Positions 278 through 21,458 of a stretch of 32,000 nucleotides of DNA are shown piece by piece. A model generated the notes under the pieces. The model was given only the letters and a program-made list of their open reading frames with translations, had not been told where the DNA came from and searched no databases. A program made the position numbers and the translations under genes. Each line of letters begins with the position of its first letter. Within the stretch, counting starts at the first letter, position 1. Where the stretch lies: positions 150,001-182,000 of the forward strand of contig NZ_CP040006.1 of assembly GCF_005696695.1 (NCBI RefSeq). The letters are read 5' to 3'. This DNA comes from Schaalia odontolytica (lineage in GTDB: Bacteria > Actinomycetota > Actinomycetes > Actinomycetales > Actinomycetaceae).

Positions 278-694
278 ATGGGCATCGTCGTCTACTTCTC
301 GTCGGCGACGGGCAACACCCGCCGTTTTGTCGAAAAGCTCGGCCTCCCGGCGGCGCGAATCCCGTTGCTTCCCAAGGATGAACCCCTGCGCGTGACCGAG
401 GAGTACGTGCTCGTCGTGCCCACCTACGGCGGCGGAAATCTCAAGGGAGCGGTGCCCAAACAGGTCATCAAGTTCCTCAATGACCCCGACAATCGGGCCC
501 TGTGTAGGGGCGTCATCTCGTCGGGAAACACTAACTTCGGCAAGGCCTACTGCATCGCGGGCGACATTATCGCGGCCAAGCTGGGGGTCCCCCACATGTA
601 TAAGTTCGAGCTCCTCGGTACGCCCGAGGACGTCTCCAGAGTTCGCGAAGGACTGGAACAGTTTTGGCAGAAAACTACACCGACACAGGCGTAG
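278..694 (+). CDS. nrdI: NrdI, flavodoxin-like class Ib ribonucleotide reductase assembly protein
   Basis: 138-aa ORF. The N-terminus [21 protein letters not shown] is typical of NrdI. A good SD (aggaagga) lies 6 nt upstream of the ATG. The gene sits immediately upstream of, and overlaps, nrdE. Confidence 0.9.
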
Positions 695-2820
695 AGGAAG
701 CTCCCTCCCCGGAGCTGGACTACCACGCGCTGAACGCGCAGCTTAACCTGTACGACGCGAACGGACACATTCAGTTCGACGCGGACCGTGCGGCGGCTCG
801 CCAGTACTTCCTCCAGCACGTCAACCAGAACACGGTGTTCTTCCACGACCTGGAAGAGAAGCTGAAGTACCTGGTAGACGAGGGCTACTACGAGAAGCAC
901 GTCCTGGACCAGTACGACTTCGCGGACATCAAGGAGCTGTACAAGCAGGCCTACGCCCACAAGTTCCGCTTCCCGACGTTCCTGGGCGCGTTCAAGTACT
1001 ACACGTCGTACACGCTCAAGACTTTCGACGGTAAGCGCTACCTGGAGCGCTTCGAGGATCGTGTCGCCATGGTGTCGCTGTACCTGGCGCGCGGCGACAT
1101 CGAGCTTGCTCGTAGCTTCGTGGACGAGATCATGACGGGCCGCTTCCAGCCTGCCACCCCGACCTTCCTCAACGCCGGTAAGGCGGCGCGCGGCGAGCTG
1201 GTCTCCTGCTTCCTGCTGCGCATCGAGGACAATATGGAGTCGATCGCGCGAGGCATCAACTCGGCCCTGCAGCTGTCCAAGCGCGGTGGCGGCGTCGCCC
1301 TGCAGCTGACGAACCTGCGTGAGTCGGGTGCCCCCATTAAGAAGATTCAGAACCAGTCCAGCGGCGTCGTGCCCGTCATGAAGCTGCTCGAGGACTCCTT
1401 CTCCTACGCGAACCAGCTGGGTGCGCGTCAGGGCGCGGGCGCTGTGTACCTGCACGCGCACCACCCGGACATCATGCAGTTCCTGGACACCAAGCGTGAG
1501 AACGCGGACGAGAAGATCCGCATCAAGACGCTGTCCCTGGGCGTCGTCATCCCGGACATCACGTTCGAGCTGGCCCGCAAGAACGAGGACATGTACCTGT
1601 TCAGCCCCTACGACGTGGAGCGCGTGTACGGCGTGCCCTTCTCCGAGATTTCGGTGACGGAGAAGTACCACGAGATGGTGGACGACGGCCGTATCCACAA
1701 GCGCAAGATCAACGCTCGTCGCTTCTTCCAGACGATCGCGGAGATCCAGTTCGAGTCCGGCTACCCCTACATCGTCTTCGAGGACACGGTGAACAAGGCG
1801 AACCCGATCAAGGGTCGCATCACCATGTCGAACCTGTGCTCGGAGATCCTCCAGGTGTCCGAGGCTTCGACCTACAACGACGACCTGTCCTACGCCCACG
1901 TCGGCAAGGACATCTCCTGCAACCTGGGCTCGCTCAACATTGCGAAGACCATGGATTCCCCGGACTTCTCCAAGACGATTGAGATGGCGATCCGCGGCCT
2001 GACGGCCGTCTCGGACCTGTCGGACATCGGCTCGGTCCCGTCGATCGCCCGCGGCAACGCGATGAGCCACGCGATCGGCCTGGGTCAGATGAACCTGCAC
2101 GGTTACCTGGCGCGCGAGCACGTGCACTACGGGTCCGAGGAGGCCCTGGACTTCACGAACATGTACTTCATGACGGTCCTGTTCGAGGCCATTAAGGCCT
2201 CGTGCAAGATCGCGCGTGAGCGCGGCGAGACCTTCGAGGGCTTCGAGGAGTCGAAGTACGCGTCGGGCGAGTTCTTCCGCAAGTACATTGACGAGGAGTG
2301 GGCCCCCACCACGGACAAGTGCCGTGAGCTGCTCGCCGCCTCGTCGATCAAGGTCCCGACCCAGGCGGACTGGGAGGCCCTGGCGGCCGACGTCGCCACG
2401 TACGGCATGTACAACCAGAACCTGCAGGCCGTGCCTCCGACGGGTTCCATCTCGTACATCAACAACTCGACGTCGTCGATTCACCCGATCGTGTCCCGCG
2501 TGGAGATCCGCAAGGAAGGCAAGATCGGCCGCGTCTACTACCCGGCGCCCTACATGTCGAACGAGAACCTGGAGTACTACCAGGACGCGTACGAGATCGG
2601 CCCGGAGAAGATCATTGACACCTACGCGGTGGCCACCCAGCACGTGGATCAGGGCCTGTCGCTCACGCTGTTCTACCCGGATACGGTGACGACGCGTGAC
2701 CTGAACAAGTCCTACATCTACGCGTGGAAGAAGGGCATTAAGACCCTGTACTACATGCGCCTGCGCCAGATGGCCCTGGAGGGCACGGAGGTCGAGGGCT
2801 GCGTGTCCTGCATGCTGTGA
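664..2820 (+). CDS. nrdE: Ribonucleoside-diphosphate reductase class Ib alpha subunit NrdE
   Basis: 718-aa ORF with motifs [40 protein letters not shown] (catalytic Cys/Glu) and a C-terminal CVSCML redox pair. The only in-frame start before the conserved N-terminus is TTG at 664, which overlaps nrdI by 31 nt. Confidence 0.93.
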
Positions 2821-2842
2821 CGTGACGCCCGTTTGTCGGGTG

Positions 2843-2880
2843 GTGCGGGGGTCGGGAAACCGGCCCCCGCACCCTTTTAT
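2843..2880 (+). terminator. Intrinsic terminator after nrdE
   Basis: gtgcggggg (2843-2851) pairs with cccccgcac (2864-2872), followed by ccTTTTat. Confidence 0.7.
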
Positions 2881-2978
2881 GTGGGACGAGGCCGGGGCGG
2901 GCCGGGAGCACCGGCGTGAGGTTGGGGCGGGCTGCGTCGGGTTGTGGTGAGTGGTGAGAAGGGACAATGAGGCGGAAC

Positions 2979-3007
2979 TTCCGTGTTGCAGAGGTTGCTC
3001 GTATGAT
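2979..3007 (+). promoter_or_regulatory. Candidate promoter for the paralog array: -10 TATGAT with a weak -35 ttccgt
   Basis: TATGAT at 3002-3007 fits the actinobacterial TANNNT form. A 17-nt spacer separates it from ttccgt at 2979-2984. This is a pattern match only. Confidence 0.25.
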
Positions 3008-3046
3008 GTGGGAGGATAAGATCCCACAATCTGACCGGAGCTATTG

Positions 3047-3553
3047 ATGAGCGACCCCTCCAATCCCTACGGCTCGGGCGGTGCGACCCCCTACGGCAGC
3101 CAGCCAGCGTACGGCGCCCAGGCCTCGTACGGTGCCCAGCCTGCCTATGGACAGGCCCCCGTCGTGCAGCAGCCTGCATACGGTACCCAACCCGCATACG
3201 GTGCCCAGGCCTCGTACGGCGCGGGCGCTTCCTACGGGCAGCCGATGTACGGCCAGGTCGTGTACGCCCTGAACCCCGCCGTCGAGCGCGTGCGTTCAAA
3301 CGCGTCCATGGTGCGCATCATGTCTTTCGTTAGCTTTGTGACGGTCGGGCCGCTCCTGTCGTTCGGTGCGTGGTTCTGGAGCATGAACCTCCTCAGCGAG
3401 GCCGAGAGCCTGGGTGCCCCCGAGGACGTGCTGAGGGACGTGCGCGGTGCCCGAACGACGGCTCTCATCTGCGGAATTGTCGGCATCGTGCTGTTCGGTC
3501 TTCTGATCGCCGCGCTCTTCCTCTCTGTCTGGCTCGTGGAATCTGCGAAGTGA
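3047..3553 (+). CDS. Paralog 1 of a small membrane-protein family (168 aa): Y/G/Q/P/A-rich N-terminus plus a two-helix C-terminal module
   Basis: ATG at 3047 is preceded by ggag 6 nt upstream. The protein starts MSDPSNPYG. It has (Q/A)(P/A)(A/S)YG repeats, then ALNPAVERVRSNASMVRIMSFVSF...LGAPEDVLRDV...ICGIVGIVLFGLLIAALFL, with two hydrophobic helices. It is homologous to the next three ORFs. Confidence 0.75.
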   Translation: MSDPSNPYGSGGATPYGSQPAYGAQASYGAQPAYGQAPVVQQPAYGTQPAYGAQASYGAGASYGQPMYGQVVYALNPAVERVRSNASMVRIMSFVSFVTVGPLLSFGAWFWSMNLLSEAESLGAPEDVLRDVRGARTTALICGIVGIVLFGLLIAALFLSVWLVESAK

Positions 3554-3565
3554 TTGGTTGTTGAC

Positions 3566-4276
3566 ATGAGTGACGAACAGATGCCCTCGCGGGCAATTCC
3601 GGCCGGCTGGGACTGGCCTCAGCAAAGCGACGGGCCGGTCGCGCCCCAGGTGGGAGCTCCCGCCTCGTCGTGGTCGAACGCTCCCGCCCAACCGCAGGCC
3701 CCTGCCCCCGCGCAGTTTGCGCCCCCGGTGGGTGCGCCCGTGAACGTCGCGCCCGTCGCGCAGCAGTCGCCCTACGCTCCCGGACACAGCGGGGTCGCGG
3801 CCGCCAGTGTGGCCCCGGCGTACGGCACCCCTGCTGCGTATCCCCAGCAGGGTGCACCCGCCCAGCCGATGCCGTCCTACGGCCAGCCGAGCGCCTATCA
3901 GGCGCAGCCTGCGCCCGTCGCCCAGCCGATGCAGCAGGCCGCCACCCCGCAGTACGGCGTGAATCCGCAGGCCGCGTACGCGAGCCAGCCGGTGCAGCCG
4001 TCCACGGATCAGCTCCGGCAGCTGGCCTTCTCCCGCCTCAAGTCCAACGCCACCGTCGCCATCGTCATGTCCTTCGTGTGGTTCTTCACGACGCCGGTCA
4101 TTCTGCTGCTCGCCAACGCGGTTCGGGCGCAGCGCCTGTGTACCCACGCCCGGGAGATCGACGCTCCGTCCGACGTGACACGGAAGGTGAACACTGCGCG
4201 CGGCATTGCGTTCGGCATGCTCCTCCTGCAGGTGAGTCTGATTATCTTGCTGATTGTCTCGGAGAACATGCGTTAG
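3566..4276 (+). CDS. Paralog 2 (236 aa): longer P/A/Q-rich N-terminus with the same C-terminal two-helix module
   Basis: Starts MSDEQMPS, 12 nt after the paralog 1 stop. The C-terminus RLKSNATVAIVMSFVWFF...IDAPSDVTRKVNTARGIAFGMLLLQVSLIILLIV aligns with the other paralogs. Confidence 0.7.
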   Translation: MSDEQMPSRAIPAGWDWPQQSDGPVAPQVGAPASSWSNAPAQPQAPAPAQFAPPVGAPVNVAPVAQQSPYAPGHSGVAAASVAPAYGTPAAYPQQGAPAQPMPSYGQPSAYQAQPAPVAQPMQQAATPQYGVNPQAAYASQPVQPSTDQLRQLAFSRLKSNATVAIVMSFVWFFTTPVILLLANAVRAQRLCTHAREIDAPSDVTRKVNTARGIAFGMLLLQVSLIILLIVSENMR

Positions 4277-4395
4277 CGATCTAGTGGCGGCCGTTGTGTT
4301 CGTAGTAACTAAAGGTCGTTTTGTTTATTTTTGTACTCTCGCGTCGGCTACGATGACAGCCGTATCCGATCGACACAAGCCATTTGGAGTCACTC

Positions 4396-4827
4396 ATGAG
4401 CGATCCCGTGAACGCCTACCCCGCCGCCGGCCAGGACCAGCCCCAGCAGGCCTACGGCCAGCAGCAGGCTTACGGTCAGCAGCAGGCTTACGGTCAGGCG
4501 CAGCCGGCGTACGGTCAGCCCGTCTACGCCCTCAACCCTGAGATTGAGAGGATCCGTTCGAACGCGTCGACGGCCCGCATGCTCTCCTTCGTGAGTTTCC
4601 TGTTCGGCCACCTCCTGCTTGCCGGTGGCATGTGGATCTGGGCCAACAAGCTGGTCGAGGACGCCAAGATCCTGGGCGCCCCGATGGACGTGATGGCCGA
4701 TGTGGAGAATGCTCGCTCGGCTGCGAAGATCTGCTCGATCATCCAGATCGCGCTCATCGCTGCGGGTTTCTTGTTCTTCATCATCTTGATGGTGATCGTC
4801 GGCGCGACTGCGGCCGCCAACAGCTGA
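4396..4827 (+). CDS. Paralog 3 (143 aa)
   Basis: ATG at 4396 has ggag upstream. The protein starts MSDPVNAYP and carries QQAYGQ x3. The C-terminus ALNPEIERIRSNASTARMLSFVSF...LGAPMDVMADVENARSAAKICSIIQIALIAAGFLFFIIL follows. An AT-rich intergenic region (4277-4395) lies upstream. Confidence 0.75.
   Translation: MSDPVNAYPAAGQDQPQQAYGQQQAYGQQQAYGQAQPAYGQPVYALNPEIERIRSNASTARMLSFVSFLFGHLLLAGGMWIWANKLVEDAKILGAPMDVMADVENARSAAKICSIIQIALIAAGFLFFIILMVIVGATAAANS
4445..4498 (+). repeat. In-frame 18-bp tandem repeat x3 inside paralog 3, encoding QQAYGQ
   Basis: cagcaggcctacggccag, cagcaggcttacggtcag, cagcaggcttacggtcag. Confidence 0.9.
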
Positions 4828-4842
4828 CGTATCGTTACGTGT

Positions 4843-4877
4843 GGGGCCCGAGGAAACGGCGAGTTTCCTCGGGCCCC
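4843..4877 (+). terminator. Perfect 15-bp stem hairpin after paralog 3
   Basis: ggggcccgaggaaac (4843-4857), loop ggcga, gtttcctcgggcccc (4863-4877). No T-run follows. Confidence 0.55.
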
Positions 4878-4950
4878 AACGCATAGTGGTTGACGACCGC
4901 TGCTACGATAGCGCCCATCGTCATCCGCACGGAACTATCTGGAGTGCACC

Positions 4951-5424
4951 ATGAGCGATCCGGCTTACCCCTACGGGGCCAATCCTGCGAGTGCGCAGGA
5001 TCCCTACTCGCAGCAGACGCCCTATGGTCCGGCTGCATCCGCGCCGTACGGCCAACCCGAGGCGGCGTACGGCCAGCAGCCTGCCTACGGCATGCCCAAT
5101 GGGACGGCGTACAGTCAGCCCGCGCCGGCCTATGCGCAGCCGTACTATGTGAGTTCAAACCTTGCGGCCGTCGCAAACCTGCGTTCCAATGCGCAGCTCG
5201 CCATGATCTTGGCTGGCGTGAGTTTCCTGACTGTCTATCTGCTTCTCTCGTTCCCCGCGATGGTGTGGTCCTTCACGCTGCGCACGAAGGCGAAGGACCT
5301 GGATGCCCCGCAGGACATCAAGTCACTGACGAATACCGCGGTGGTCGTCACGTCCATATGCGCATCACTCCAGCTGCTCGTGCCTCTTGCCTTTTTCCTC
5401 GCCTTTTTCCTCAGTGAACGATAA
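4951..5424 (+). CDS. Paralog 4 (157 aa), the most divergent member
   Basis: Starts MSDPAYPYG and has a Y/Q/P/A-rich N-terminus. The C-terminus reads NLRSNAQLAMILAGVSFLTVYLLLSF...LDAPQDIKSLTNTAVVVTSICASLQLLVPLAFFLAFFL. Confidence 0.7.
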   Translation: MSDPAYPYGANPASAQDPYSQQTPYGPAASAPYGQPEAAYGQQPAYGMPNGTAYSQPAPAYAQPYYVSSNLAAVANLRSNAQLAMILAGVSFLTVYLLLSFPAMVWSFTLRTKAKDLDAPQDIKSLTNTAVVVTSICASLQLLVPLAFFLAFFLSER

Positions 5425-5488
5425 GTCGTGTGCTGATACCACCTTGCCACCCGTGAGACTCGCGCGACAGCGTCGACTCTTCACACCC

Positions 5489-5529
5489 CGGAGCCTGTAG
5501 GAACGGTGATGCCGTTTCCGCAGGCTCCG
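5489..5529 (+). terminator. Long imperfect hairpin between paralog 4 and the ABC-class ATPase gene
   Basis: cggagcctg (5489-5497) pairs with caggctccg (5521-5529). There is an inner ggaacgg/ccgtttcc pairing. No clear T-run follows. Confidence 0.4.
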
Positions 5530-5546
5530 CCTGTATTCTTGAGGGT

Positions 5547-7313
5547 ATGACTCCCCGATACGAAGCACCCTCGCGCTCGACGTCCGGAACCGACGCAGAC
5601 CTCCTCGATCAGCTGCGATACGCGGACGGGCGCCCCTACGGCTTCTACAAGAACGCCCTGGGTGCCTGGGATTACGGGGACTTCACCCTCGCGATCGATC
5701 ACGTGCAGGCCGATCCCTACGCCCCGCCCTCGTCCCTGCGTGCCTGGTCGACACCCGAGGCCATGGGACTGCCCGAGGCCGCCCTGGCCTCGTCCGACGC
5801 GCGCCTGGCGGCCGCGGACTTCATCGCACGCTCCTTCGACGAGGCTATCCGCGCCCGCGACACCCGCGACGTGTCCATTGCCCGCGCCGGCGCCCTCATC
5901 CTCCAGCGCTCCTACGCGACCGTCCTACCCGACCGCGTCGAGGTCCGCTTCCAAGTCAAGCTCCCCGCGCGCGGACGCACGATCCTCGGCAAGAGCGCCG
6001 CTCACCTCTTCGATGTGGACGTGCCCAACATCGTCATGGACTGCTTCGACTTCGTCTCCGAGGACCCGGCCACCACCCGCAAGCGCTCCCGCCTCCTCGG
6101 CCACGTCGCCGCCTACGAGGACTACCGCGCCCTCCAGGGAATCCTCGAGGAACGCGGCTGGGTGTCCTTCGTCGCCGACGACGCCCTGTTGGCGCGCCGA
6201 TCCGGCGTGTCCGAAACACCCCTGACGGGTGACGGCGTCGTCGCTTTCAATGCCCCCGAGACCCTGCGCGCCACCGTCACCCTGCCGCACGCCGGCGAGG
6301 TGTCGGGCATGGCGATCCCCCCGGGCCTGACCCTCATCGTGGGCGGCGGCTACCACGGCAAGTCCACGCTCCTGGAGGCCATCGCCCAGGGCGTGTACGC
6401 GCACATCCCCGGCGACGGCCGCGAGCTCGTCGCCACCGACCCCACCGCCACGAAAGTGCGCGCCGCCGACGGGCGAGCCGTTACCGGCGTTGATATCTCG
6501 CCGTTCATCACCCACCTGCCCGGCGGCGCCGACACCACCTCCTTCTCCACCGAAAACGCGTCCGGCTCCACCTCGCAGGCCGCCTCCATCATCGAATCCC
6601 TCGAGCTGGGCGCCCGCACGCTCCTCATCGACGAGGACACCTCCGCGACCAACCTCCTCATCCGTGACACGCGCATGCGCGACCTCGTCGCCGCCGAGAA
6701 GGAACCCATCACGCCCCTCGTCGACCGCGTCACCTCCCTCACCGAGGCCGGGGTCTCCCTCATCATGGTCGTCGGCGGCTCCGGCGCGTTCCTCGACGCC
6801 GCCGACCGGGTCCTCATGATGGACAACTACCGCTGCCTCGACGTCACCTCCCGCGCACGCGAGGTCGTGGCCAACCTGCCGCGCCCCCGCACCGACGCCC
6901 CCACCAGCTGGGAGGCGGCACCCCGCGTGCCCGCCGCGAAGGCCCGCGTGGACCGCCCGCGCACCAAGGCCTCGGGCACTTCCGTGCTGACGATCGACCG
7001 CTCGACCGTCGACATTTCCGACGTCGCCGCAGTCGTCGACCCCGGGCAGGCCGAGGCCATCGCCTGGTGCGTGCGCGGCGTCCTCGAGGAGATGGCCGGC
7101 AAGCAGTCGATGCCCGACCTCATGGCCAAGCTCGGACGGCGCCTCGCCTCCGAGGGCCTGGACGCCGTCTGCAAGTTCGGCGCCCGCTCCTACCCGGCGT
7201 TCCTGGCGCGCCCGCGCCTCATCGATGTGGGCGCCGCCATCAACCGTTATCGCGGGCTGTCCCTGCGCGAGCCGCGCGGCGAGGCTGTTGCGAGCGAGGT
7301 TTCCGAGTCGTAG
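5547..7313 (+). CDS. Predicted ATPase of the ABC class (COG3044/ABC_ATPase-type, function unknown)
   Basis: 588-aa ORF with SD gaggg upstream. Walker A is in LIVGGGYHGKSTLLEAI, and Walker B-like LLIDEDTSATNLL is present. Length and layout are typical of the stand-alone soluble ABC-class ATPase family. The family assignment is from memory, not a search. Confidence 0.8.
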   Translation: MTPRYEAPSRSTSGTDADLLDQLRYADGRPYGFYKNALGAWDYGDFTLAIDHVQADPYAPPSSLRAWSTPEAMGLPEAALASSDARLAAADFIARSFDEAIRARDTRDVSIARAGALILQRSYATVLPDRVEVRFQVKLPARGRTILGKSAAHLFDVDVPNIVMDCFDFVSEDPATTRKRSRLLGHVAAYEDYRALQGILEERGWVSFVADDALLARRSGVSETPLTGDGVVAFNAPETLRATVTLPHAGEVSGMAIPPGLTLIVGGGYHGKSTLLEAIAQGVYAHIPGDGRELVATDPTATKVRAADGRAVTGVDISPFITHLPGGADTTSFSTENASGSTSQAASIIESLELGARTLLIDEDTSATNLLIRDTRMRDLVAAEKEPITPLVDRVTSLTEAGVSLIMVVGGSGAFLDAADRVLMMDNYRCLDVTSRAREVVANLPRPRTDAPTSWEAAPRVPAAKARVDRPRTKASGTSVLTIDRSTVDISDVAAVVDPGQAEAIAWCVRGVLEEMAGKQSMPDLMAKLGRRLASEGLDAVCKFGARSYPAFLARPRLIDVGAAINRYRGLSLREPRGEAVASEVSES

Positions 7314-7455
7314 TTGCTTGTGGCCCCACGGGTGTTCCGTGCGCCGGAGGGCCCGGCCGCCCGCGAGGCTAGGCGGCCTCACTTCGTTCGGCGCCGCGCC
7401 TCGAAGCCCGCCCGTGCCCTCCGGTCCCTCCGGCACCCTCCACACCAGTGGGGCC
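7314..7455. repeat. Repeat module M1, copy A (142 nt)
   Basis: Starts directly after the ATPase stop codon. It matches 11876-12017 with 4 mismatches counted by eye. Confidence 0.9.
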
Positions 7456-7537
7456 GGGTCGCTGTGCTAGCCCGGCCAGGCCCCGCCACCGCCCATGGGC
7501 CCGCAGTCAGGCCGTGCCGACCAGGCGGCCCGGTTGT

Positions 7538-7710
7538 CTGAAACCGGTGTCGCCTTTGCTCATGTGTGGCTGTGTGGGGTTGAAACCGTCATCGCCTTTG
7601 CGTGTGAGAAATGGGTGTTTTTGGTGCGGTTTTTGGGTGCAGTGGTGATGTCGGTTTCAAGGGGCCCTTGTTGGGGGTGAGCAGTGGTGTTGTTGGTTTC
7701 AATGTCGCCA
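7538..7710. repeat. Double-armed palindrome set 1: TTGAAACCG-type motif, 2 direct then 2 inverted copies
   Basis: Direct copies are ctgaaaccggtgtcgcctttgc (7538-7559) and ttgaaaccgtcatcgcctttgc (7580-7601). Inverted copies are gtgatgtcggtttcaa (7645-7660) and ttggtttcaatgtcgcc (7694-7709). Both pairs are centred near 7620. Confidence 0.75.
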
Positions 7711-7724
7711 TGGTGTCGCGTCTG

Positions 7725-7889
7725 GTGCGCGAAAAAGATCGCCCGGCGGTGCTGTGTCATCGCGAAAGTGCGAAAAAGTTCGCCCAACGCGCTCAAATTG
7801 GCCCAAATTCAGCGTTTTTGCGCTTGCTGGGCGAGTATTTTCGCGGAAGAGCCGCTGGAGGGGCCGTGCTGGGCAAGTTTTTTCGCGCC
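7725..7889. repeat. Double-armed palindrome set 2: GCGAAAAAG(A/T)TCGCCC motif, 2 direct then 2 inverted copies
   Basis: Direct copies are gtgcgcgaaaaagatcgccc (7725-7744) and gtgcgaaaaagttcgccc (7768-7785). Inverted copies are gggcgagtattttcgcgg (7829-7846) and gggcaagttttttcgcgcc (7871-7889). Both pairs are centred near 7807 and the arms are imperfect. Confidence 0.65.
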
Positions 7890-7943
7890 AACCGACCCTG
7901 CGTCGATCTTGGATGCGATGCGGTGCACTTCAGGCTGGCTGCG

Positions 7944-8023
7944 ATGGGGGTTTTACGCCATGCGAAGCCCTCTGACGGCGTGTCGTCGGCGTGTCGGAGG
8001 CTTGGATGGCGTCATTCCCCCCG
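7944..8023. repeat. Repeat module M3, copy A (~80 nt)
   Basis: atgggggttttacgccatgcgaagccctctgacggcgtgtcgtcggcgtgtcggaggcttggatggcgtcattccccccg matches 12394-12472 with about 6 differences. Confidence 0.85.
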
Positions 8024-8064
8024 ATTGGTGGCGGCGCGGCCGCGCTGTTTGATGTGAACCGACC

Positions 8065-15470: not shown

Positions 15471-18400
15471 ATGGCAACGAGTCGAGCGCGCGCAGGCCAC
15501 GCGCGGACCAAGCGAGCAGGAGTCGCGTCCCGCGCCCTGGCCGCCCTGGCCGTCGTGGCAACCGCCACCGGTACGCTGGTCGTCTCCCAGGTCGCCACCC
15601 CCCAGGCGGCTCAGGCCGCCCAGGAGCCTGCCGCCACCGGAATTGAAGTTGGCCCCGTTCGCGCCAACATGGGAACGGGCTTCGTCAACGCGTCTGCGAC
15701 GGACACGACCACCAGCCTTCCCGACAACTTCATCCGCTACGGCATCGTCAAGGCCATGAGCGACAAGCCTGCTGACAGGATCAGGACGGGCACTGCCCCG
15801 ATGACGACGTTCCTTGGCGGCGAGTACGCGAAGAATAATGATGCCTGGACCTACATCGCCCGCGGCTGGCCCTGGAAGTGGGATGAGAACCCTGCGAAGG
15901 CGGACGATAGTCAAAAGTGGATGCAGGCCCACTATGAACAGTGGAAGAATGGTGGCGACGGCACGATCTGGGTGAATGGCCAGTCCGCTATCGGCTTTAA
16001 GCCGAACGACCCGGGCACCGTCCAGCCGGGTCAGACCTTCCTGCTCGGCGCCATCCGTCATAACAACCTGCCGATCCGTGGCGGCGCAAATGTCAAGCAG
16101 TTCCTGCACTCGAGCCTGAATCTCACGCTCCCGGACCTGGTCGGCAGCACGCCTGAGAACTTCCCCTTCGTCAACCAGGAGACGTCCAACACCCTGGCGA
16201 CGACGATCATCTACCGCAAGGGCGGCGCCTACGTGAAGACGGCCGGCGAGCCTGGCACGGGCACCTGCTCCTCCGACTTTGGGCTCAACGGTTGGCCCGC
16301 GACCCAGCAGATCGAGGGTAAGTGGCCCCGCGACTGGCTCCTTGCAGGTGGCAAGTACGGTACCCCCGGTTACACGCCCTCCGGTTCCTTCATTGGTCCC
16401 GCCTACGAGCCGGACCCGGTCGACGCGAGCGATCGCTCGAAGGGTTACGTCAACAAGCCCGAGACCCAGTCCGGACGTATGTACTGCGTCAAGTACGTGG
16501 GCGAGGGCAACGGCGAGTACGACCTCTACAGCCAGTACTACAACAAGGGTGCCGAGCAACCCGCCAGCACTCTGGGTACCAATCATCCCGAGGTTCTGCC
16601 GCGTGAGTGGCCGGGCGCCAAGGGTAACGTCAACGAGAACCCCTACGTGTGGGATAACGTGAAGCTGACGAAGACGACGTCGGACCAGACCTTCACGAAG
16701 AACGGTCGTACCTACCGCCTGCAGCTGTGGGGCTTCGTTCCCGCGGACAACCCCAGGACGCTGATCACCCCGGAGAATATTCAGAGTATTCCGACGGCTC
16801 AGTGCCCGGCGACCCCCGCTCCGGATGCCAAGCGCACCGACACCTTCATTACGCAGGAGCTCTCGGTCAACTACGGCTGCCTCTACGGCGTCATCACCGA
16901 GGAGCGCTCCGTGCGCATCGCGAAGGCCGTTGAGGATCCGGCGGGCGCCAACCCGACCATCCCCGCCGCCAACTTCTCGGTGGAGACCGGCGCGACCTGG
17001 CACGATAACACCGACCGTACCCCGGCGACCACCGGCACGGTGACCGTTTCGAAGCCCACGGCATCCTCCGCCCCCGCCAAGGCCTCGTACATCTCCGCAG
17101 CCGACCCGGCTGCGACGCTCACCCCCACCGCCTTCGGTGAGACCCAGGCGAAGTACGACTCGGTGTTCATCCCCTTCGAGGTCGGCAACTCCGACTTCAC
17201 CATCACGGAGAAGGACATCAACACCGGCGGCGAGGACAAGTGGAACCTCAAGGACATCAAGTGCGTCAACGGCATCGGTGAAGACGTCGCCGTGACCAAG
17301 ACCGAGCGCGGCGTTAGCTTCAAGAACGTCGGCGGTGCAAAGTCCGATGAGGCAGCCCCCATCACCTGTACGTTCGTCAACGAATACCAGGCTCCCAAGC
17401 TGCGCGTCGAGAAGTCCATCGAGGCGAACGGCGGCGCCAACGGCGCCACGAGCTTCAACGTGGACTACAAGATCGTCGCCACCAACGACGGCTCGCTGGC
17501 CGCCAACACCGGCAAGCTCACCGACAAGCCCGACTTCGCCAAGGGCCTGGAAATCCAGTCCGCGAAGATCGCCGAAACCCAGGCCGGCCTGGACTCCGCG
17601 TCCAACGCCACCGCCACGAACGGCGTCTACACGCTGACCGACGGCGTCGAGCTCGCTGCCGGGGCCACCAAGGAATACTGGATCCGCTTCGCGGTCGTCC
17701 GCAACACTGCGGCCGCCGGCTACAACGAGGCCGACCTGGCCTGCTCGACTCCGAGGGAGAATATCCCCGTTGCCGGCTACGGCCTCTTCAACGAGGTCCT
17801 GGCTGAGAACGGCAAGGACTGGGACGGCACGGACAACAACAAGGCCTGCGGCCCCACCGTCCCCCACGACTTCGTGGTGGTGAAGGCCGGCACGCAGAAC
17901 ACGGGTAAGACCTTCACCGACGCGGATAACCAGTACACGGGCCCCAATGGAGTCAAGCTGTACCCCCTCGCGGGCGCTGAGTTCGAGATCTACAAGTCCA
18001 ACCCCAACACGGACGCCAACGCCCAGGTCGTCAAGACCCTGACCCAGGCGACCGCGACCGACGGCTACTACTGGTCCGTCAGCGACCTGAACATCGACAC
18101 TGCCTACTGGCTGGTCGAGACCAAGGCCCCCGCCGGACACTCCCTGCTGCCCCAGCCCCTCGAGTTCAAGCTGACCACCGTCCACGCCGGCGGCTCCGGC
18201 ACGAACGTTGAGCTCGCGGCCGACCTGAAGGACCAGGCCAAGTGGGCCACGAGCGCCGTCCAGGCGTTCGCGTCGGACAGTAGCATGCCCGGCGACAAGG
18301 GCTTCCTGGCCGCCGGAACCCGCAAGGCCACCATCGTTGTCAAGGACACCGAGGTTGGCGAGCTGCCCAAGGCTGGCAGCACCGGAATCTACCCCTACAT

Positions 18401-18479
18401 CGGCGTCGCAGCGGCGCTCATGTCCGGGGCGATGGTGATGACCGTGGTCACCACCAAGAGGCGCAAGGCAATCGCCTGA
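15471..18479 (+). CDS. Large sortase-substrate surface protein, tip-fimbrillin-like adhesin (1002 aa)
   Basis: ATG at 15471 follows aaggag. A signal peptide is present (RALAALAVVATATGTLVVSQVATPQAAQA). The C-terminal region has Cna-B/pilin-like features including the E-box-like YWLVETKAPAGH. The sorting signal is LPKAGSTG plus a hydrophobic helix plus KRRK. It is the first gene of a pilin-sortase cluster. Confidence 0.85.
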   Translation: MATSRARAGHARTKRAGVASRALAALAVVATATGTLVVSQVATPQAAQAAQEPAATGIEVGPVRANMGTGFVNASATDTTTSLPDNFIRYGIVKAMSDKPADRIRTGTAPMTTFLGGEYAKNNDAWTYIARGWPWKWDENPAKADDSQKWMQAHYEQWKNGGDGTIWVNGQSAIGFKPNDPGTVQPGQTFLLGAIRHNNLPIRGGANVKQFLHSSLNLTLPDLVGSTPENFPFVNQETSNTLATTIIYRKGGAYVKTAGEPGTGTCSSDFGLNGWPATQQIEGKWPRDWLLAGGKYGTPGYTPSGSFIGPAYEPDPVDASDRSKGYVNKPETQSGRMYCVKYVGEGNGEYDLYSQYYNKGAEQPASTLGTNHPEVLPREWPGAKGNVNENPYVWDNVKLTKTTSDQTFTKNGRTYRLQLWGFVPADNPRTLITPENIQSIPTAQCPATPAPDAKRTDTFITQELSVNYGCLYGVITEERSVRIAKAVEDPAGANPTIPAANFSVETGATWHDNTDRTPATTGTVTVSKPTASSAPAKASYISAADPAATLTPTAFGETQAKYDSVFIPFEVGNSDFTITEKDINTGGEDKWNLKDIKCVNGIGEDVAVTKTERGVSFKNVGGAKSDEAAPITCTFVNEYQAPKLRVEKSIEANGGANGATSFNVDYKIVATNDGSLAANTGKLTDKPDFAKGLEIQSAKIAETQAGLDSASNATATNGVYTLTDGVELAAGATKEYWIRFAVVRNTAAAGYNEADLACSTPRENIPVAGYGLFNEVLAENGKDWDGTDNNKACGPTVPHDFVVVKAGTQNTGKTFTDADNQYTGPNGVKLYPLAGAEFEIYKSNPNTDANAQVVKTLTQATATDGYYWSVSDLNIDTAYWLVETKAPAGHSLLPQPLEFKLTTVHAGGSGTNVELAADLKDQAKWATSAVQAFASDSSMPGDKGFLAAGTRKATIVVKDTEVGELPKAGSTGIYPYIGVAAALMSGAMVMTVVTTKRRKAIA

Positions 18480-18560
18480 GCCACCCATGAGGTCCCGTGA
18501 CCACGAGACCCACCATCAGAAAAAACTCCCGAAATCACACACACAGGAGAAAGAAAACCA

Positions 18561-20171
18561 ATGAGCACCACGAAGACCCGCCGCAGCCTGAGCCTGCTCG
18601 CAGCCTTCGCCGTCGCCGCCGGCGCGCTGGCCCTGCCCGCCGCCACCTCCGCGACCCAGGCTGCCCCCGCCTTCGGCCTTGCGGCGACCGTCACGCGCGC
18701 CCCGTCGCTGGTCGACCTCGACGCCACCAAGACCGGCTCCATCACCATCCACAAGCTGGTCAAGGACGCCAACAACGGCACCACCGCTGGCAACGGCCTC
18801 GAGGACGCCACCGCGACCGGCGACCCCCTCGACGGCGCGACCTTCACCGTCGAGAAGCTGACCAACGTCGACCTCACCACGCAGGCCGGCTGGGAGAAGC
18901 TCGCTGGCTTCAACGGCAACGTTGACACCGCGAAGGCTGACGGCGTTGACGCTGCCGTCACCAAGACCACCGCCGGTGGCGGTCTGGCTAAGTTTGACAG
19001 CCTCCCCCTCGGCGCCTACGTCGTGACCGAGACCGTGACCCCCGCCGGCTACGTCGGCTCCAAACCCTTCATCATCACGGTGCCCATGACGCACCCGACC
19101 GACCTCAACAAGTGGGTCTACGACGTCCACGCCTACCCGAAGAACTCCAAGGCCGGCATCGAGAAGACCGTCGCCGACGAGAACACCCCGGCCATCGGCT
19201 CGGACATCTCCTACACCATCAAGTCGGACATCCCCGCCGCTGAGGCCCTCGACTTCTACGACGTCGTCGACCAGTACGACAAGCGTGTGGAGCTGCCCGA
19301 GGCCGGCATCACGCTGAAGATCGTCGACGGCAAGAACGGCGAGGTCGCCCTGGCCAAGGGCACCGACTACAAGCTGATCGCCGCCGATGGCACCGATGGC
19401 AAGACCAAGTTCTGGACCGCCGAGTTCACCGCTGATGGCCGCGCCAAGCTGATCGCCAACCGCAAGGACGACAACACCAAGGTCCAGATGGACCTGGCCG
19501 GCACCGTCAAGGACAAGGTTGAGGCTGACGGCCTGTTCAAGAACAAGGCCATCCTGCTCCCCAACGCTCCCTCCAATGGCTGGAAGCCCAACTCGGGTGA
19601 GGTTCCCCCGCCGGATTACCCGAACTCCGAGGTTGTCTCCAAGTTCGGCAAGGTGAAGATCACCAAGGTCTCCGCTAAGGACACCAACGCCAAGCTGAAG
19701 GGCGCCGAGTTCGAGGTCTACCAGTGCACGCCTCAGACCACCCCGACCGCGAACTTCGAGTCCGTTGACGCGACCCTCGACAAGAAGCTGTCGCCCGCCG
19801 GCACCGAGACCTACACCACCGACGCCAACGGTGAGGTCACCATCGACGGCCTGCGCAACAACGACTGGGCGAACAACGCCGCCGTCGCCAACCCCGGCTA
19901 CTACTGCCTCGTTGAGACCAAGGCTCCCGAGGGCTTCGAGCTCCAGACCCGCCCGATCGCCTTCCAGATCCTGCAGTCCAACTCCAAGGCTGACAACGAG
20001 TACACCCTCAACACCACGGTGAAGGACGTCCCGAAGAACGGTGGCTTCAACCTGCCGCTGACCGGTGCTGCCGGTGTTGGCGTCCTGATCGGCGCTGGCG
20101 CCCTCCTCGTGGGCGGCTCCGGTGCGATCGCGCTGGCCAACAAGCGCCGCAAGGAGCAGGCCGACGCCTGA
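18561..20171 (+). CDS. Major (shaft) pilin, SpaA/FimA-type LPXTG fimbrial subunit (536 aa)
   Basis: SD aggaga lies upstream and a signal peptide is present. Features: pilin motif WVYDVHAYPKN, E-box YCLVETKAPEGFEL, LPLTG sorting signal plus TM plus KRRKEQ tail. Confidence 0.9.
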   Translation: MSTTKTRRSLSLLAAFAVAAGALALPAATSATQAAPAFGLAATVTRAPSLVDLDATKTGSITIHKLVKDANNGTTAGNGLEDATATGDPLDGATFTVEKLTNVDLTTQAGWEKLAGFNGNVDTAKADGVDAAVTKTTAGGGLAKFDSLPLGAYVVTETVTPAGYVGSKPFIITVPMTHPTDLNKWVYDVHAYPKNSKAGIEKTVADENTPAIGSDISYTIKSDIPAAEALDFYDVVDQYDKRVELPEAGITLKIVDGKNGEVALAKGTDYKLIAADGTDGKTKFWTAEFTADGRAKLIANRKDDNTKVQMDLAGTVKDKVEADGLFKNKAILLPNAPSNGWKPNSGEVPPPDYPNSEVVSKFGKVKITKVSAKDTNAKLKGAEFEVYQCTPQTTPTANFESVDATLDKKLSPAGTETYTTDANGEVTIDGLRNNDWANNAAVANPGYYCLVETKAPEGFELQTRPIAFQILQSNSKADNEYTLNTTVKDVPKNGGFNLPLTGAAGVGVLIGAGALLVGGSGAIALANKRRKEQADA

Positions 20172-20190
20172 GCCTAGCTAGCGACACACA

Positions 20191-20222
20191 GGGGGGTGTG
20201 GACCCGCGGGTCCACACCCCCC
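20191..20222 (+). terminator. Perfect 32-nt palindrome between the pilin and sortase genes; attenuator or terminator candidate
   Basis: ggggggtgtggacccgcgggtccacacccccc, followed by ttgcgttg. Confidence 0.6.
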
Positions 20223-20289
20223 TTGCGTTGCCCGCAACCGCCCCCAGCGGTACTACCCTGTAACCAGACAAACTTCCACGGCCTCGGCA

Positions 20290-21423
20290 ATGAACGGAGA
20301 AAGCGTGAGCACCCAAGCGCCCGACAAGAAGAAGACACCCCTCAAGTGGCGTCTCCTCACCATCGCGCCCCCGATCCTGCTGCTGGCCGGCATCCTGGTC
20401 CTCCTGTACCCCGTCTTCGCGACCCAGTACAACAACGCGCGCCAGGAACGCATCGCCTCTGAATTCAGCGCCGTCGCCGAGCAGGCCGGCCCCGACGCCG
20501 TCGCCGAGTCCCTGCGCCGCGCCGACGAATACAACCTCAAGGCCTCCGAGTCGCCGATCCTCGACCCCTGGCTGGACGCCCAGCGCCCCGGCACTGCGCA
20601 GTACCAGGACTACCTGAGCCAGCTCAACCTCAACGACGTCATGGCGACCATCAAGATCCCCTCGATCGACGTCAACCTGCCGATCTACCACGGCACCGAC
20701 ACCGCGACGCTCGACAAGGGCATCGGCCACCTCTTCGGCACCGCCCTGCCCGTCGGCGGCGAATCCACGCACACGGTCCTCACCGGCCACACCGGCCTGG
20801 GCAACGCCACCATGTTCGACCAGCTGACCAGCGTCAAGATGGGCGACTACTTCTACATCGAGACCGCCGGGCGCCACCTCAAGTACCAGGTCACCGACAT
20901 CCGCGTCGTCCTGCCCCACGAGACCGAGTCCCTCAACAAGGTCGAAGGCAAGGACCTCGCCACCCTCATCACCTGTACCCCCTACGGAGTCAACACGCAC
21001 CGCCTCCTCGTGACCGGCGAGCGCGTCCCCATGGACGAGGAGGCCGTGGCCGCCGAAGCCGCGCAGGTCAAGGGCTCCGTCATGAAGCCGTGGATGATCG
21101 CCGTCCTCGCGTCCGTCGCCGTCATCCTGCTCGTTGCCGGCATCCTCTGGCTGCGCTCCCGCAAGCGCAACGACGAGGAGCCGCAGGAGATTGAGGGCGC
21201 CGCCGCTGCTGCGCTCGCCTCCGCCGAGGCCGGGGACGAGGCCGGGGCTGAGTCCGCCGAGGCCGCTGAGTCCGCCGAGGCCGCTGAGTCCGTCGCCGAC
21301 GCCCCCGACGCGCCCGCCGCCCCCGACCTGCTGACGGACGCCGAGCAGATCTCCGAGGAGGAGATCAACGCCGGCCGCACCGCCGCCCTGAGGAAGATGC
21401 TTGAGGAACGCGGCAAGCAGTAA
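20290..21423 (+). CDS. Class C (pilus-specific) sortase with an extended acidic C-terminal tail
   Basis: Features: N-terminal TM, lid-like ILDPWLDA, HTVLTGHTGL (His), TLITCTPYGVNTHRLLV (TLxTC Cys, Arg), C-terminal TM PWMIAVLASVAVILLVAGILWL, then a tail of about 90 aa. An alternative start is GTG at 20305, which has ggaga 5 nt upstream. Confidence 0.9.
   Translation: MNGESVSTQAPDKKKTPLKWRLLTIAPPILLLAGILVLLYPVFATQYNNARQERIASEFSAVAEQAGPDAVAESLRRADEYNLKASESPILDPWLDAQRPGTAQYQDYLSQLNLNDVMATIKIPSIDVNLPIYHGTDTATLDKGIGHLFGTALPVGGESTHTVLTGHTGLGNATMFDQLTSVKMGDYFYIETAGRHLKYQVTDIRVVLPHETESLNKVEGKDLATLITCTPYGVNTHRLLVTGERVPMDEEAVAAEAAQVKGSVMKPWMIAVLASVAVILLVAGILWLRSRKRNDEEPQEIEGAAAAALASAEAGDEAGAESAEAAESAEAAESVADAPDAPAAPDLLTDAEQISEEEINAGRTAALRKMLEERGKQ
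21247..21300 (+). repeat. In-frame 18-bp tandem repeat x3 in the sortase tail, encoding AESAEA
   Basis: gctgagtccgccgaggcc occurs twice identically (21247-21264 and 21265-21282). A third, degenerate unit is gctgagtccgtcgccgac. Confidence 0.9.
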
Positions 21424-21458
21424 GCAACCCTTTCACGTGCCCCCGTGGGGCACCTGAG

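What the first reader, a model, noticed from the sequence alone, without database searches (positions are those of the whole stretch)
3047..5424. Tandem array of four paralogous MSD-initiated membrane proteins with Tyr/Gly/Gln/Pro/Ala-rich tails
Four consecutive same-strand ORFs (168, 236, 143 and 157 aa) share one architecture:
- Each starts with MSD.
- Each has a low-complexity N-terminus built from (Q/A)(P/A)(A/S)YG-type units.
- Each has a conserved ~95-aa C-terminal module: [RK]-SNA-x4-5-(M/I/L)-x-(S/A)-(F/G)-V-(S/W)-F in helix 1, then an acidic loop with (L/I)-(G/D)-A-P-x-D-(V/I), then an A-R/A motif leading into helix 2.

I do not recognise this module as a named family. The hairpin-loop-helix layout and Y/P-rich tail are reminiscent of CD225/dispanin-like or DUF4190-like small actinobacterial membrane proteins, but that is only an analogy.

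Four diverged copies in a row suggest diversification, for example of a surface-exposed loop or an interaction tail. They lie between a terminator (2843-2880) and an uncharacterised ABC-class ATPase. I consider this the best candidate in the window for an undescribed system.
Basis: partly seen in the sequence, partly recalled or inferred. Interest (0 to 1): 0.72.

Follow-up and report, generated by a model that had tools for sequence, protein, structure and literature searches.

The report
Fast-evolving DUF4190-like membrane protein array
Four neighbouring genes in the oral bacterium Schaalia odontolytica encode small related membrane proteins with floppy tyrosine-rich tails; they are diverged, locally multiplied copies of a widespread but uncharacterised family (DUF4190) that change unusually fast between strains, so this is a variant of a known kind rather than a new system.

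Summary
There are four same-strand genes of 168, 236, 143 and 157 aa. All start with MSD, all have Y/G/Q/P/A-rich tails, and all share a roughly 95-aa module with two hydrophobic segments (pairwise BLASTP E 6e-10 to 3e-29).

They are real genes. GC3 is 0.75-0.87, dN/dS is 0.26-0.71, repeat indels are in frame, and the genes are intact in more than 40 related loci.

No curated model reaches its threshold. Profile-profile comparison nevertheless links the module to DUF4190 (hhalign probability 92-97%, against 5% or less for controls). A single-copy gene at the same position in more distant Actinomycetaceae carries a weak precomputed DUF4190 hit. CD225/IFITM is not supported (probability below 1%).

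The ancestral arrangement is nrdHIE, one copy, then the ABC-class ATPase. Schaalia and Pauljensenia expanded this to 3-4 copies. The array is an island of divergence: 60-93% nucleotide identity, against 93-98% in the flanks. The 28-residue loop is the most conserved part. The tails vary by six-residue units.

Strong hairpins split the array into separate transcription units. Most ABC-ATPase homologues lack such neighbours, so this is not a multi-gene "system".

Function is unknown. My best inference is a membrane-anchored tether carrying a disordered tail. Interest is moderate.

The parts
2842..2873 (+). Intrinsic terminator of nrdE. It marks the upstream boundary of the array.
   Evidence: A 14-bp stem with 12 GC pairs followed by CUUUUAU. 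It folds at -35 kcal/mol, z = -4.3.
3047..3553 (+). P1, 168 aa. The disordered tail (aa 1-~74) is built of xQxxYG hexapeptide units. The C-terminal membrane module is aa 72-168 (nt 3260-3550). A GGAG Shine-Dalgarno sequence lies 7 nt upstream.
   Evidence: The AF2 model is disordered over residues 1-74 and has helices at 77-99, 102-122 and 126-167. The protein is identical to KSW13386.1/QCT34675.1.
3092..3141 (+). 18-nt tandem repeat that encodes the hexapeptide units of the P1 tail.
   Evidence: TRF finds period 18 with 2.8 copies, and the repeat finder recovers families D1, D4 and D5. Alleles mostly differ by multiples of 6 aa, with lengths of 150/156/162/168.
3566..4276 (+). P2, 236 aa. It has the longest tail (~145 aa, Pro/Ala/Gln-rich). 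The module is aa 146-236 (nt 4001-4273). It starts 12 nt after the P1 stop codon, with no strong Shine-Dalgarno sequence. It is probably co-transcribed and translationally coupled with P1.
   Evidence: This paralogue is absent from the 3-copy arrays.
4396..4827 (+). P3, 143 aa. The tail is aa 1-~47 and contains QQQAYG repeats (18-nt repeat at 4444-4519). The module is aa 43-143 (nt 4522-4824). A GGAG sequence lies 9 nt upstream.
   Evidence: The AF2 model has pLDDT 78 and helices at 48-70, 72-93 and 97-142.
4843..4877 (+). Perfect 15-bp GC-rich hairpin after P3. It is a likely terminator or insulator, though it has no U tract.
   Evidence: It folds at -39 kcal/mol, z = -6.3, and none of 200 shuffles fold as well.
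4951..5424 (+). P4, 157 aa. The tail is aa 1-~64 and the module is aa 65-157 (nt 5143-5421). A GGAG sequence lies 9 nt upstream. It is the most divergent position of the array between strains.
   Evidence: Between strains this position is 33-100% identical, including wholesale replacement in L005/L006.
5489..5529 (+). Hairpin between P4 and the ABC-class ATPase gene, followed by a partly U-rich stretch.
   Evidence: It folds at -33.3 kcal/mol, z = -4.3.
5547..7313 (+). Neighbouring gene, given as context only. It encodes an ABC-class ATPase with ABC_N + ABC_ATPase + MRB1590_C domains.
   Evidence: The Pfam match has E = 8.7e-115. Most homologues have no family member upstream.

Best explanation
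The four ORFs are real genes for a fast-evolving, tandemly expanded subfamily of DUF4190-type small integral membrane proteins. The expansion is specific to Schaalia/Pauljensenia.

Each protein has two parts. The N-terminal tail is intrinsically disordered, almost free of positive charge, and rich in Tyr/Gly/Gln/Pro/Ala. It is built from hexapeptide units whose number varies between strains. The C-terminal module is a compact helical membrane anchor. Its first hydrophobic helix is broken at the centre. A conserved 28-residue helix-turn(G-A-P)-helix connector follows, and then a long second hydrophobic helix.

Shown here: the anatomy, the paralogy, the coding status, the remote homology to DUF4190, the origin from a single gene between nrdE and the ABC-class ATPase gene, the 3-4 copy expansion, and the strong local divergence.

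Inferred working model: the module anchors the protein in the cytoplasmic membrane and probably lets it self-associate. The tail then acts as a flexible, multivalent, Tyr-based binding leash. It most likely lies on the cytoplasmic face, because other DUF4190 proteins carry an N-terminal zinc ribbon. The paralogues would put different tails on one conserved anchor.

These proteins are not enzymes or transporters, and they are not subunits of the neighbouring ATPase. The biological process they serve is unknown. Confidence is about 0.85 for the identity and evolutionary statements and about 0.3 for the tether mechanism.
For: Paralogy and hydrophobic segments.

Coding status: GC3, dN/dS of 0.26-0.71 and mostly in-frame six-residue indels.

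Structure: AF2 models of P3 and P1 give the same layout. The tail is disordered. Helix 1 breaks at H71 in P3 and at G100-P101 in P1. There is a GAP turn and a long final helix.

Family size: only 64 representatives at 50% identity among 1.84 billion proteins.

Link to DUF4190:
- 12 of 40 representatives give full-length, sub-threshold hits to PF13828.
- P0171 carries a precomputed (weak) PF13828 hit. It sits between nrdE and the ABC-class ATPase gene, as the window's array does.
- hhalign of the modules against bona fide DUF4190 proteins gives probability 92%, P = 6.7e-7 and score 38.5, against a score of 18.3 or less (probability 5% or less) in 62 reversed or shuffled controls.
- With 40 family representatives the probability is 96.6% and P = 4.8e-10.
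- Bona fide DUF4190 proteins share the M-S/T-D start and the QPxYG-rich tail. They also share an enriched N-terminal [DN]P[YFW] motif.

Synteny and copy number.

Divergence island.

Conserved loop and tail composition.

Zn_Ribbon_1 + DUF4190 fusions place the N-terminus in the cytoplasm.

Non-essentiality: none of the four genes is among the 203 putatively essential XH001 genes. That list jumps from APY09_03180 to APY09_03785, while nrdI is APY09_03310 (PMC12369343).
Against: - None of the four window proteins hits PF13828 even at E <= 1. The best family relative scores 26.8 bits against a cutoff of 35.
- The family's consensus sequence does not hit DUF4190 either.
- Hydrophobic composition inflates profile-profile scores, although the controls argue against that here.
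- Topology is unresolved. K/R counts are 3.9 in the loop, against 1.5 in the N-flank and 0.1 in the C-tail. Under the positive-inside rule this puts the loop inside and the tail outside, which conflicts with the N-in inference from the zinc-ribbon fusions.
- No experiment or expression datum for these genes could be retrieved. The supplementary tables were truncated just before their rows.
- The tether function is inferred from composition only.
Confidence: 0.55

Rival explanations
1. Surface display. The uncharged tail is translocated (N-out, loop-in, C-out). It forms a strain-variable surface or cell-wall-zone structure under diversifying pressure from phages, Saccharibacteria epibionts or the host.
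For: - The array is an island of divergence: 60-93% nucleotide identity, against 93-98% in the flanks. P2 is present or absent between strains, and the P4 position is wholesale replaced in some.
- dN/dS is 3-20 times that of the flanks, and dS is also higher.
- The tails have essentially no K/R.
- The loop is the K/R-rich segment.
- The organism is the XH001-type host of TM7x.
- A 2026 preprint reports four consecutive 'hypervariable, surface-anchored' genes induced by Saccharibacteria in strain F0309 (PMC13622651). Whether those are this array is unknown.
Against: - Zn-ribbon-DUF4190 fusions imply a cytoplasmic N-terminus in the superfamily.
- There is no signal peptide.
- Tails of 44-145 aa are long for translocation without a signal peptide.
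- dN/dS is below 1 everywhere.
- The identity with the preprint's genes could not be tested, because no supplements are held.
Confidence: 0.2
2. IFITM/CD225-like membrane modulator. The first hydrophobic segment would be a re-entrant helical hairpin. The conserved loop would be an interfacial cytoplasmic element, and only the last helix would span the membrane. The proteins would then alter membrane curvature or fusion.
For: - UniProt's name for P1 is 'Interferon-induced transmembrane protein'.
- Helix 1 is broken at its centre in both AF2 models.
- Foldseek's weak best matches are three-helix bundles, not two-helix hairpins.
- An N-in inference combined with a K/R-rich loop would fit an IFITM3-type topology.
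Against: - The Pfam CD225 hit is only E = 0.046, it lies in the wrong register, and it is seen in 3 of 40 members.
- hhalign against IFITM1/3/5 gives probability 0.2-0.9%, no better than reversed controls.
- CD225's signature motifs are absent: the CC-x-LG in segment 1 and the G-D...A loop (read directly).
- The IFITM alignment was small and limited to vertebrates.
Confidence: 0.1
3. Membrane partners of the adjacent soluble ABC-class ATPase (PF09818), together forming a membrane-associated machine.
For: A family member lies immediately upstream of the ATPase gene in every Schaalia/Pauljensenia locus. The same holds in distant single-copy relatives where the ATPase is only 58-66% identical.
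Against: - Strong hairpins lie after P3 and after P4, and each gene has its own Shine-Dalgarno sequence.
- In the same metagenome scan, five loci with a 57-61% identical ATPase and at least 3.9 kb of sequence upstream of it have no family member. No locus at 52% identity or below has one.
- Demequina DUF4190 pairs sit between clpP and tig instead.
- The whole nrdHIE-X-ATPase block is syntenic, so the adjacency is not independent evidence.
Confidence: 0.05
4. Spurious ORFs in GC-rich, low-complexity non-coding DNA.
For: The tails are low-complexity. Long antisense ORFs also exist here.
Against: The codon-position GC pattern, dN/dS below 1, mostly in-frame repeat indels, the conserved Shine-Dalgarno + ATG + MSDP block (D6), intact orthologues in more than 40 loci, and homologues across Actinomycetaceae.
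Confidence: 0.01

Closest known systems
DUF4190 (Pfam PF13828): small actinobacterial/firmicute membrane proteins of unknown function
   Same: - The overall architecture matches: an M-S/T-D start, a P/Q/Y/G-rich disordered tail, then two hydrophobic helices joined by a charged loop.
- There is significant profile-profile similarity across both helices and the loop.
- The gene at the same position in distant Actinomycetaceae is flagged as DUF4190.
- DUF4190 genes also occur in tandem, as in Demequina.
- Both share an N-terminal [DN]P[YFW] motif.
   Different: - The window proteins score below the Pfam threshold, with no hit at E <= 1.
- The connector is longer (28 aa) and has its own motifs: RSNA before helix 1, W-x-W at its end, and G-A-P-x-D-V. 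DUF4190 instead has G-H...KRGEADNRG...LAGLI.
- Expansion to 3-4 copies at one locus, with extreme divergence between strains.
- DUF4190 itself has no known function. The literature search found one incidental mention of DUF4190 and none of PF13828.
NCBIfam NF040945 'CCC motif membrane protein'
   Same: Sub-threshold matches cover nearly the whole model (about positions 1-84 of 99). E-values range from 5e-9 to 7e-5 for distant members, for the family consensus and for P3.
   Different: Scores are 23-36 bits against a cutoff of 65. The eponymous CCC motif is absent. That family is also uncharacterised.
CD225/dispanin (IFITM, PRRT2; PF04505)
   Same: These are small proteins with a proline-rich N-terminus, two hydrophobic segments and a conserved connecting loop. 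UniProt names P1 an 'Interferon-induced transmembrane protein'.
   Different: There is no detectable sequence or profile relationship, and the signature motifs are absent.
Zn-ribbon-DUF4190 fusion proteins (e.g. P0299, P0310)
   Same: They have the same Q/P/Y/G-rich linker followed by the hairpin module.
   Different: They carry a folded N-terminal zinc ribbon in place of a free tail. They are used here only to infer the topology of the superfamily.

Membership tests
DUF4190 (PF13828) | Score above Pfam's gathering threshold (35 bits) | tested here: not met
   None of the four window proteins hits the model at E <= 1. The best family relative, P0171, scores 26.8 bits. Twelve of 40 representatives give sub-threshold hits. 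The family consensus gives no hit.
DUF4190 (PF13828) | Profile-level homology of the two-helix module to bona fide members | tested here: met
   hhalign gives probability 92%, P = 6.7e-7 over 71 columns, and 96.6%, P = 4.8e-10 with 40 representatives. Reversed and shuffled controls score 18.3 or less (probability 5% or less). A DUF4190 HMM built here hits the ATPase-proximal copy of the 3-copy arrays at E = 4e-5 to 8e-4.
DUF4190 (PF13828) | Two hydrophobic helices joined by a short charged loop, preceded by a disordered P/Q/Y/G-rich tail | tested here: met
   Supported by hydropathy, the AF2 models, and a side-by-side alignment with Demequina, Streptomyces and Leucobacter members.
DUF4190 (PF13828) | Orthology with recognised members | tested here: met
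   P0171 has a precomputed PF13828 hit flagged weak. It occupies the nrdE-X-ABC_ATPase slot in a distant relative.
CD225/dispanin (PF04505) | HMM or profile similarity to the CD225 domain | tested here: not met
   The Pfam hit is E = 0.046 and 14.3 bits against a cutoff of 27.1, and it is out of register. Only 3 of 40 members hit. hhalign against validated IFITM1/3/5 gives probability 0.2-0.9%.
CD225/dispanin (PF04505) | Re-entrant first segment plus a single spanning helix (IFITM3-type topology) | not testable with these tools
   There are only indirect hints: a broken helix 1 and the K/R distribution. Topology mapping is needed.
DUF2510-type N-terminal domain proteins | Pfam hit | tested here: not met
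   DUF2510 does not appear among the hits at E <= 1 for the four proteins. It is also not among the 25 families listed for the 40 relatives.
NF040945 CCC motif membrane protein | Score above the NCBIfam cutoff (65 bits) and the CCC motif | tested here: not met
   Scores are 23.1-36.5 bits. No CCC motif is present in the sequences.
Known anti-phage defence or phage proteins (PADLOC, PHROGs) | Any model hit | tested here: not met
   There are no hits at E <= 0.01 for the four proteins in either library, nor for the ATPase in PADLOC.

The most novel reading that the evidence does not exclude
The array could be a host-side, strain-variable envelope determinant in the arms race between Schaalia and its Saccharibacteria epibionts (or phages). 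The repeat-length-variable Tyr-rich tails would be exposed outside the membrane. The array might be the same as the four 'hypervariable, surface-anchored' genes (OBNOAD_00248-00251) that TM7-008 infection induces in S. odontolytica F0309 through the Esr1 threat-sensing pathway (PMC13622651).
Probability: 0.12. Interest if true: 0.75.

Novelty: new variant of a known kind. Interest (0 to 1): 0.4.

Why it matters
DUF4190-type proteins are abundant in Actinobacteria, and no paper in the library searched here assigns them a function. This locus offers an unusually tractable entry point for three reasons.
- It is a non-essential array of 3-4 genes.
- The organism, S. odontolytica XH001, is genetically manipulable.
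- The locus has a clear evolutionary signature: conserved anchor and loop, variable tails, and an island of divergence inside near-identical flanks.

If the variability reflects biotic conflict with phages or Saccharibacteria, it would give the superfamily its first functional handle. If not, the result still removes a false "new system" lead. It also corrects two misleading database names: 'Interferon-induced transmembrane protein' for P1, and 'isopentenyl-diphosphate delta-isomerase' for the neighbouring ATPase.

Tried and rejected
- Pfam, NCBIfam, PADLOC and PHROGs scans of the four proteins gave nothing above threshold.
- A sequence search of the PDB gave nothing below E = 0.29.
- Foldseek of the P3 model against the PDB gave no match at E <= 1e-3, only generic helical bundles.
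- The family consensus scanned against Pfam gave no DUF4190 hit.
- An Rfam scan of 2700-5700 gave no RNA family, so there is no riboswitch or leader upstream of the genes.
- No sigma-70-like promoter was found by the consensus scan.
- The first attempt at a genome scan with the four-paralogue alignment failed, because no stretch was conserved enough. It was redone with P1/P3-like sequences.
- The CD225 hypothesis was tested with IFITM1/3/5 written from memory and then validated against Pfam. The result was negative.
- Functional coupling to the ABC-class ATPase was rejected after the metagenome scan.
- Gene conversion among the paralogues was rejected. There are no long identical tracts, only the Shine-Dalgarno/start block and the 18-nt tail repeats.
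- The literature gave no result. There was no hit for the locus tags or accessions. The XH001 transcriptome tables are cut off one row before nrdE and the array. No supplements are held for the F0309 preprint.
Full report
The window carries four consecutive + strand ORFs at 3047-3553, 3566-4276, 4396-4827 and 4951-5424. They encode proteins of 168, 236, 143 and 157 aa, here called P1-P4, and each starts with MSD.

The similarity is not an artefact of low complexity. With the tails cut off, the ~95-aa C-terminal modules match pairwise at BLASTP E 6e-10 to 3e-29 (33-53% identity). Each module has two strongly hydrophobic windows.

The frame is coding. GC at codon positions 1/2/3 is 0.61-0.70 / 0.43-0.55 / 0.75-0.87, as in nrdE and the ATPase gene. 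P1, P3 and P4 each have GGAG 7-9 nt before the ATG. This Shine-Dalgarno/start/MSDP block is itself a conserved direct repeat (D6). P2 starts 12 nt after the P1 stop codon.

**2. Organism and neighbourhood.** P1, P2, P4 and the downstream ATPase are identical to proteins of Schaalia odontolytica: KSW13386.1/QCT34675.1 (FBF35_00720), QCT34676.1, KSW13389.1 and KSW13390.1. The same locus is found in GCA_001462375.1, contig LLVT01000001.1. This is the assembly used in the XH001 Tn-seq study.

- Upstream lie nrdH, nrdI and nrdE, followed by a strong terminator at 2842-2873 (-35 kcal/mol).
- Downstream lies a PF09818 ABC-class ATPase.
- A perfect hairpin follows P3 (4843-4877, -39 kcal/mol, z = -6.3).
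- Another hairpin follows P4 (5489-5529, -33 kcal/mol).

The array is therefore most simply read as three transcription units (P1-P2, P3 and P4), insulated from both neighbours. This is an inference from the structures, not from RNA data.

**3. Anatomy.** AlphaFold2 models built on family alignments give the same layout for P3 (pLDDT 78) and for P1 (for P3, for P1):

| Element | P3 | P1 |
|---|---|---|
| Disordered tail | residues 1-47 | residues 1-74 |
| First hydrophobic helix | 48-70 and 72-93, broken at H71 | 77-99 and 102-122, broken at G100-P101 |
| Turn | G-A-P | G-A-P |
| Final helix | 97-142 | 126-167 |

Across 40 family representatives the tails are 75-86% Y/G/Q/P/A/S. They contain almost no K/R: none in P1, P3 and P4, and a family mean of 0.7. 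The best-conserved columns are L-R-S-N before helix 1, P-A-W-x-W-G at its end, and A...G-x-P-x-D-V in the connector. The connector was 28 residues long in all eight sequences printed.

The tails are encoded by 18-nt repeats. Fifty P1 alleles from metagenomes range from 150 to 169 aa. Most of the spread is in six-residue steps (150/156/162/168), and all of the length variation lies in the tail.

**4. What family is it?** No curated model reaches its threshold for the four proteins in Pfam, NCBIfam, PADLOC or PHROGs. The PDB gives nothing by sequence or by fold.

An exhaustive HMMER scan of 1.84 billion cluster representatives finds only 64 relatives at E <= 1e-3. None of the 120 close homologues listed carries a Pfam domain. 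The few that a source names are called 'hypothetical protein', from Actinomyces.

The more distant representatives connect the family to DUF4190:
- 12 of 40 give full-length but sub-threshold hits to PF13828, and several also hit NF040945 below its cutoff.
- P0171 carries a precomputed (weak) PF13828 hit, and its nearest relative is a Demequina 'DUF4190 domain-containing protein'.
- I aligned 20 bona fide DUF4190 proteins and ran hhalign on the trimmed modules. The result was probability 92%, P = 6.7e-7 and score 38.5 over both helices and the loop.
- Two reversed and 60 column-shuffled controls never exceeded score 18.3. These included shuffles that preserve the TM/loop layout.
- With 40 family representatives the probability rises to 96.6% and P falls to 4.8e-10.
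- The bona fide DUF4190 proteins also share the M-S/T-D start and the QPxYG-type tail.
- They share an N-terminal [DN]P[YFW] motif too. It occurs in 12 of 40 and 12 of 20 proteins within the first 16 residues, against about 0.07 expected.

The Pfam hit is E = 0.046 and out of register. hhalign against Pfam-validated IFITM1/3/5 gives 0.2-0.9%, equal to reversed controls. UniProt's name for P1, 'Interferon-induced transmembrane protein', is therefore not backed by the current models.

**5. Evolution.** In 19 genome loci and more than 20 metagenome loci from Schaalia, Pauljensenia and 'Actinomyces', the slot between nrdE and the ATPase gene holds 3 or 4 family members. In more distant relatives the same slot holds a single copy. 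In those, the ATPase is 58-66% identical, NrdE is 87-96% identical over the stretch held, and GC is 55-71%. One of these single copies is P0171, the DUF4190-flagged protein. The Schaalia array is thus a tandem expansion of one ancestral DUF4190-like gene.

The array is an island of divergence:
- Against the window, nrdE is 96-98% identical at the nucleotide level and the ATPase gene 93-96%.
- Array genes are 51-93% identical in 4-copy genomes and 59-70% in 3-copy genomes, where P2 is missing.
- The intergenic spacers diverge as well.
- In Schaalia sp. ORNL0103 the P4 position holds a paralogue only 33% identical in its module, although P1-P3 are 91-95% identical.

Within the 4-copy class, dN/dS of the modules is 0.26-0.71, against 0.03 for NrdE and 0.08 for the ATPase. 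dS is also raised for P2 and P4 (0.42-0.47, against 0.12-0.16 in the flanks). The genes are therefore constrained but evolve much faster than their surroundings, and old alleles appear to be exchanged.

There is no sign of recent gene conversion between paralogues. None of the four genes is among the 203 putatively essential genes of XH001 (PMC12369343). That list passes from APY09_03180 directly to APY09_03785, while nrdI is APY09_03310.

**6. Is it a 'system' with the ATPase?** Probably not. Beyond the hairpins, the metagenome scan argues against it. Five loci with a 57-61% identical ATPase and at least 3.9 kb of upstream sequence have no family member. No locus at 52% identity or below has one. 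Demequina DUF4190 genes form a tandem pair between clpP and tig. The adjacency is lineage-specific synteny.

**7. Mechanism (inferred).** The proteins have no catalytic or transport features. The most economical reading is a conserved membrane anchor with a conserved, probably protein-binding, helix-turn-helix connector. This anchor would carry a flexible, multivalent Tyr/Gln/Pro leash of adjustable length, possibly ending in a short N-terminal recognition motif.

Topology is unresolved, because two lines of evidence disagree:
- DUF4190 proteins with an N-terminal zinc ribbon argue that the N-terminus, and therefore the tail, is cytoplasmic.
- The K/R distribution (loop 3.9, N-flank 1.5, C-tail 0.1) argues that the loop is cytoplasmic.

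Both can be true only if the centrally broken first segment is re-entrant, as in an IFITM3-like topology. That is a hypothesis, not a result. The alternative, an exported tail, would fit the hypervariability and the ecology of this organism as a host of Saccharibacteria.

A 2026 preprint reports four consecutive 'hypervariable, surface-anchored' genes induced by Saccharibacteria in strain F0309 (PMC13622651). I could not determine whether they are this array.

**8. Verdict.** It is a divergent, locally expanded, fast-evolving branch of the uncharacterised DUF4190 superfamily. Interest is moderate. The evolutionary signature and the tractable host make it a reasonable place to find a first function for this superfamily.

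Noticed in passing
window 15354-24153 (+): A sortase-dependent pilus/fimbrial operon. It encodes a 1041-aa SpaA-domain protein, a 536-aa major pilin (GramPos_pilinD1 + SpaA), a 377-aa sortase and an 865-aa SpaA-domain protein. PMC13622651 says fimbrial operons are repressed in S. odontolytica on Saccharibacteria infection. I did not test whether this operon is one of them.
   Followed up: partly
first 16 residues of P1 (window 3047-3094) and of many relatives; P0229 and others: A short N-terminal motif, M-S/T-x(1-8)-[DN]-P-[YFW], is enriched in this family (12 of 40) and in bona fide DUF4190 proteins (12 of 20). About 0.07 would be expected from the rest of the tails. It may be a conserved linear recognition motif at the tip of the tail. 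It remains unexplained.
   Followed up: partly
window 5547-7313 (+): The PF09818 ABC-class ATPase is named 'isopentenyl-diphosphate delta-isomerase' in GenBank and UniProt. It has only ABC_N/ABC_ATPase/MRB1590_C domains, so this is a likely misannotation. Homologues at 40-50% identity occur in very diverse metagenomes with GC of 29-76%.
   Followed up: partly
L029 5312-7128 (Demequina rhizosphaerae): Bona fide DUF4190 genes also occur as a tandem pair, followed by a 196-aa ORF with no Pfam hit, between clpP and tig. Many Demequina members end in a conserved Cys-containing tail (ECGGxNPAxWC). That hints at an extracytoplasmic, disulfide-bonded C-terminus.
   Followed up: no
window 7400-8300; window 25727-26665 (-): A stretch of about 1 kb between the ATPase gene and the ABC transporter has only short, weak ORFs, for example the 148-aa ORF at 7611-8057 that is called in L002. 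In one relative (L004) the corresponding gap holds a DUF559/MTES_1575 endonuclease-like gene on the opposite strand. A similar DUF559/MTES_1575 gene lies at 25727-26665 in the window. This may be a small mobile or variable element.
   Followed up: no
window 664-2820 and all Schaalia loci: nrdE is 96-98% identical at the nucleotide level and 96-100% at the protein level across genomes that GTDB treats as different species. The neighbouring ATPase gene is 93-96% identical (83% in S. meyeri). nrdE is thus unusually conserved. nrdF is not adjacent; it is APY09_03180, about 25 genes away.
   Followed up: no
L013, L016, L005 (record titles): Assemblies titled Xylanimonas cellulosilytica 352_XCEL, Sanguibacter keddieii 250_SKED and 'uncultured Xylanimonas' carry this Schaalia locus, with NrdE 99-100% identical. 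The public records are probably mislabelled.
   Followed up: no
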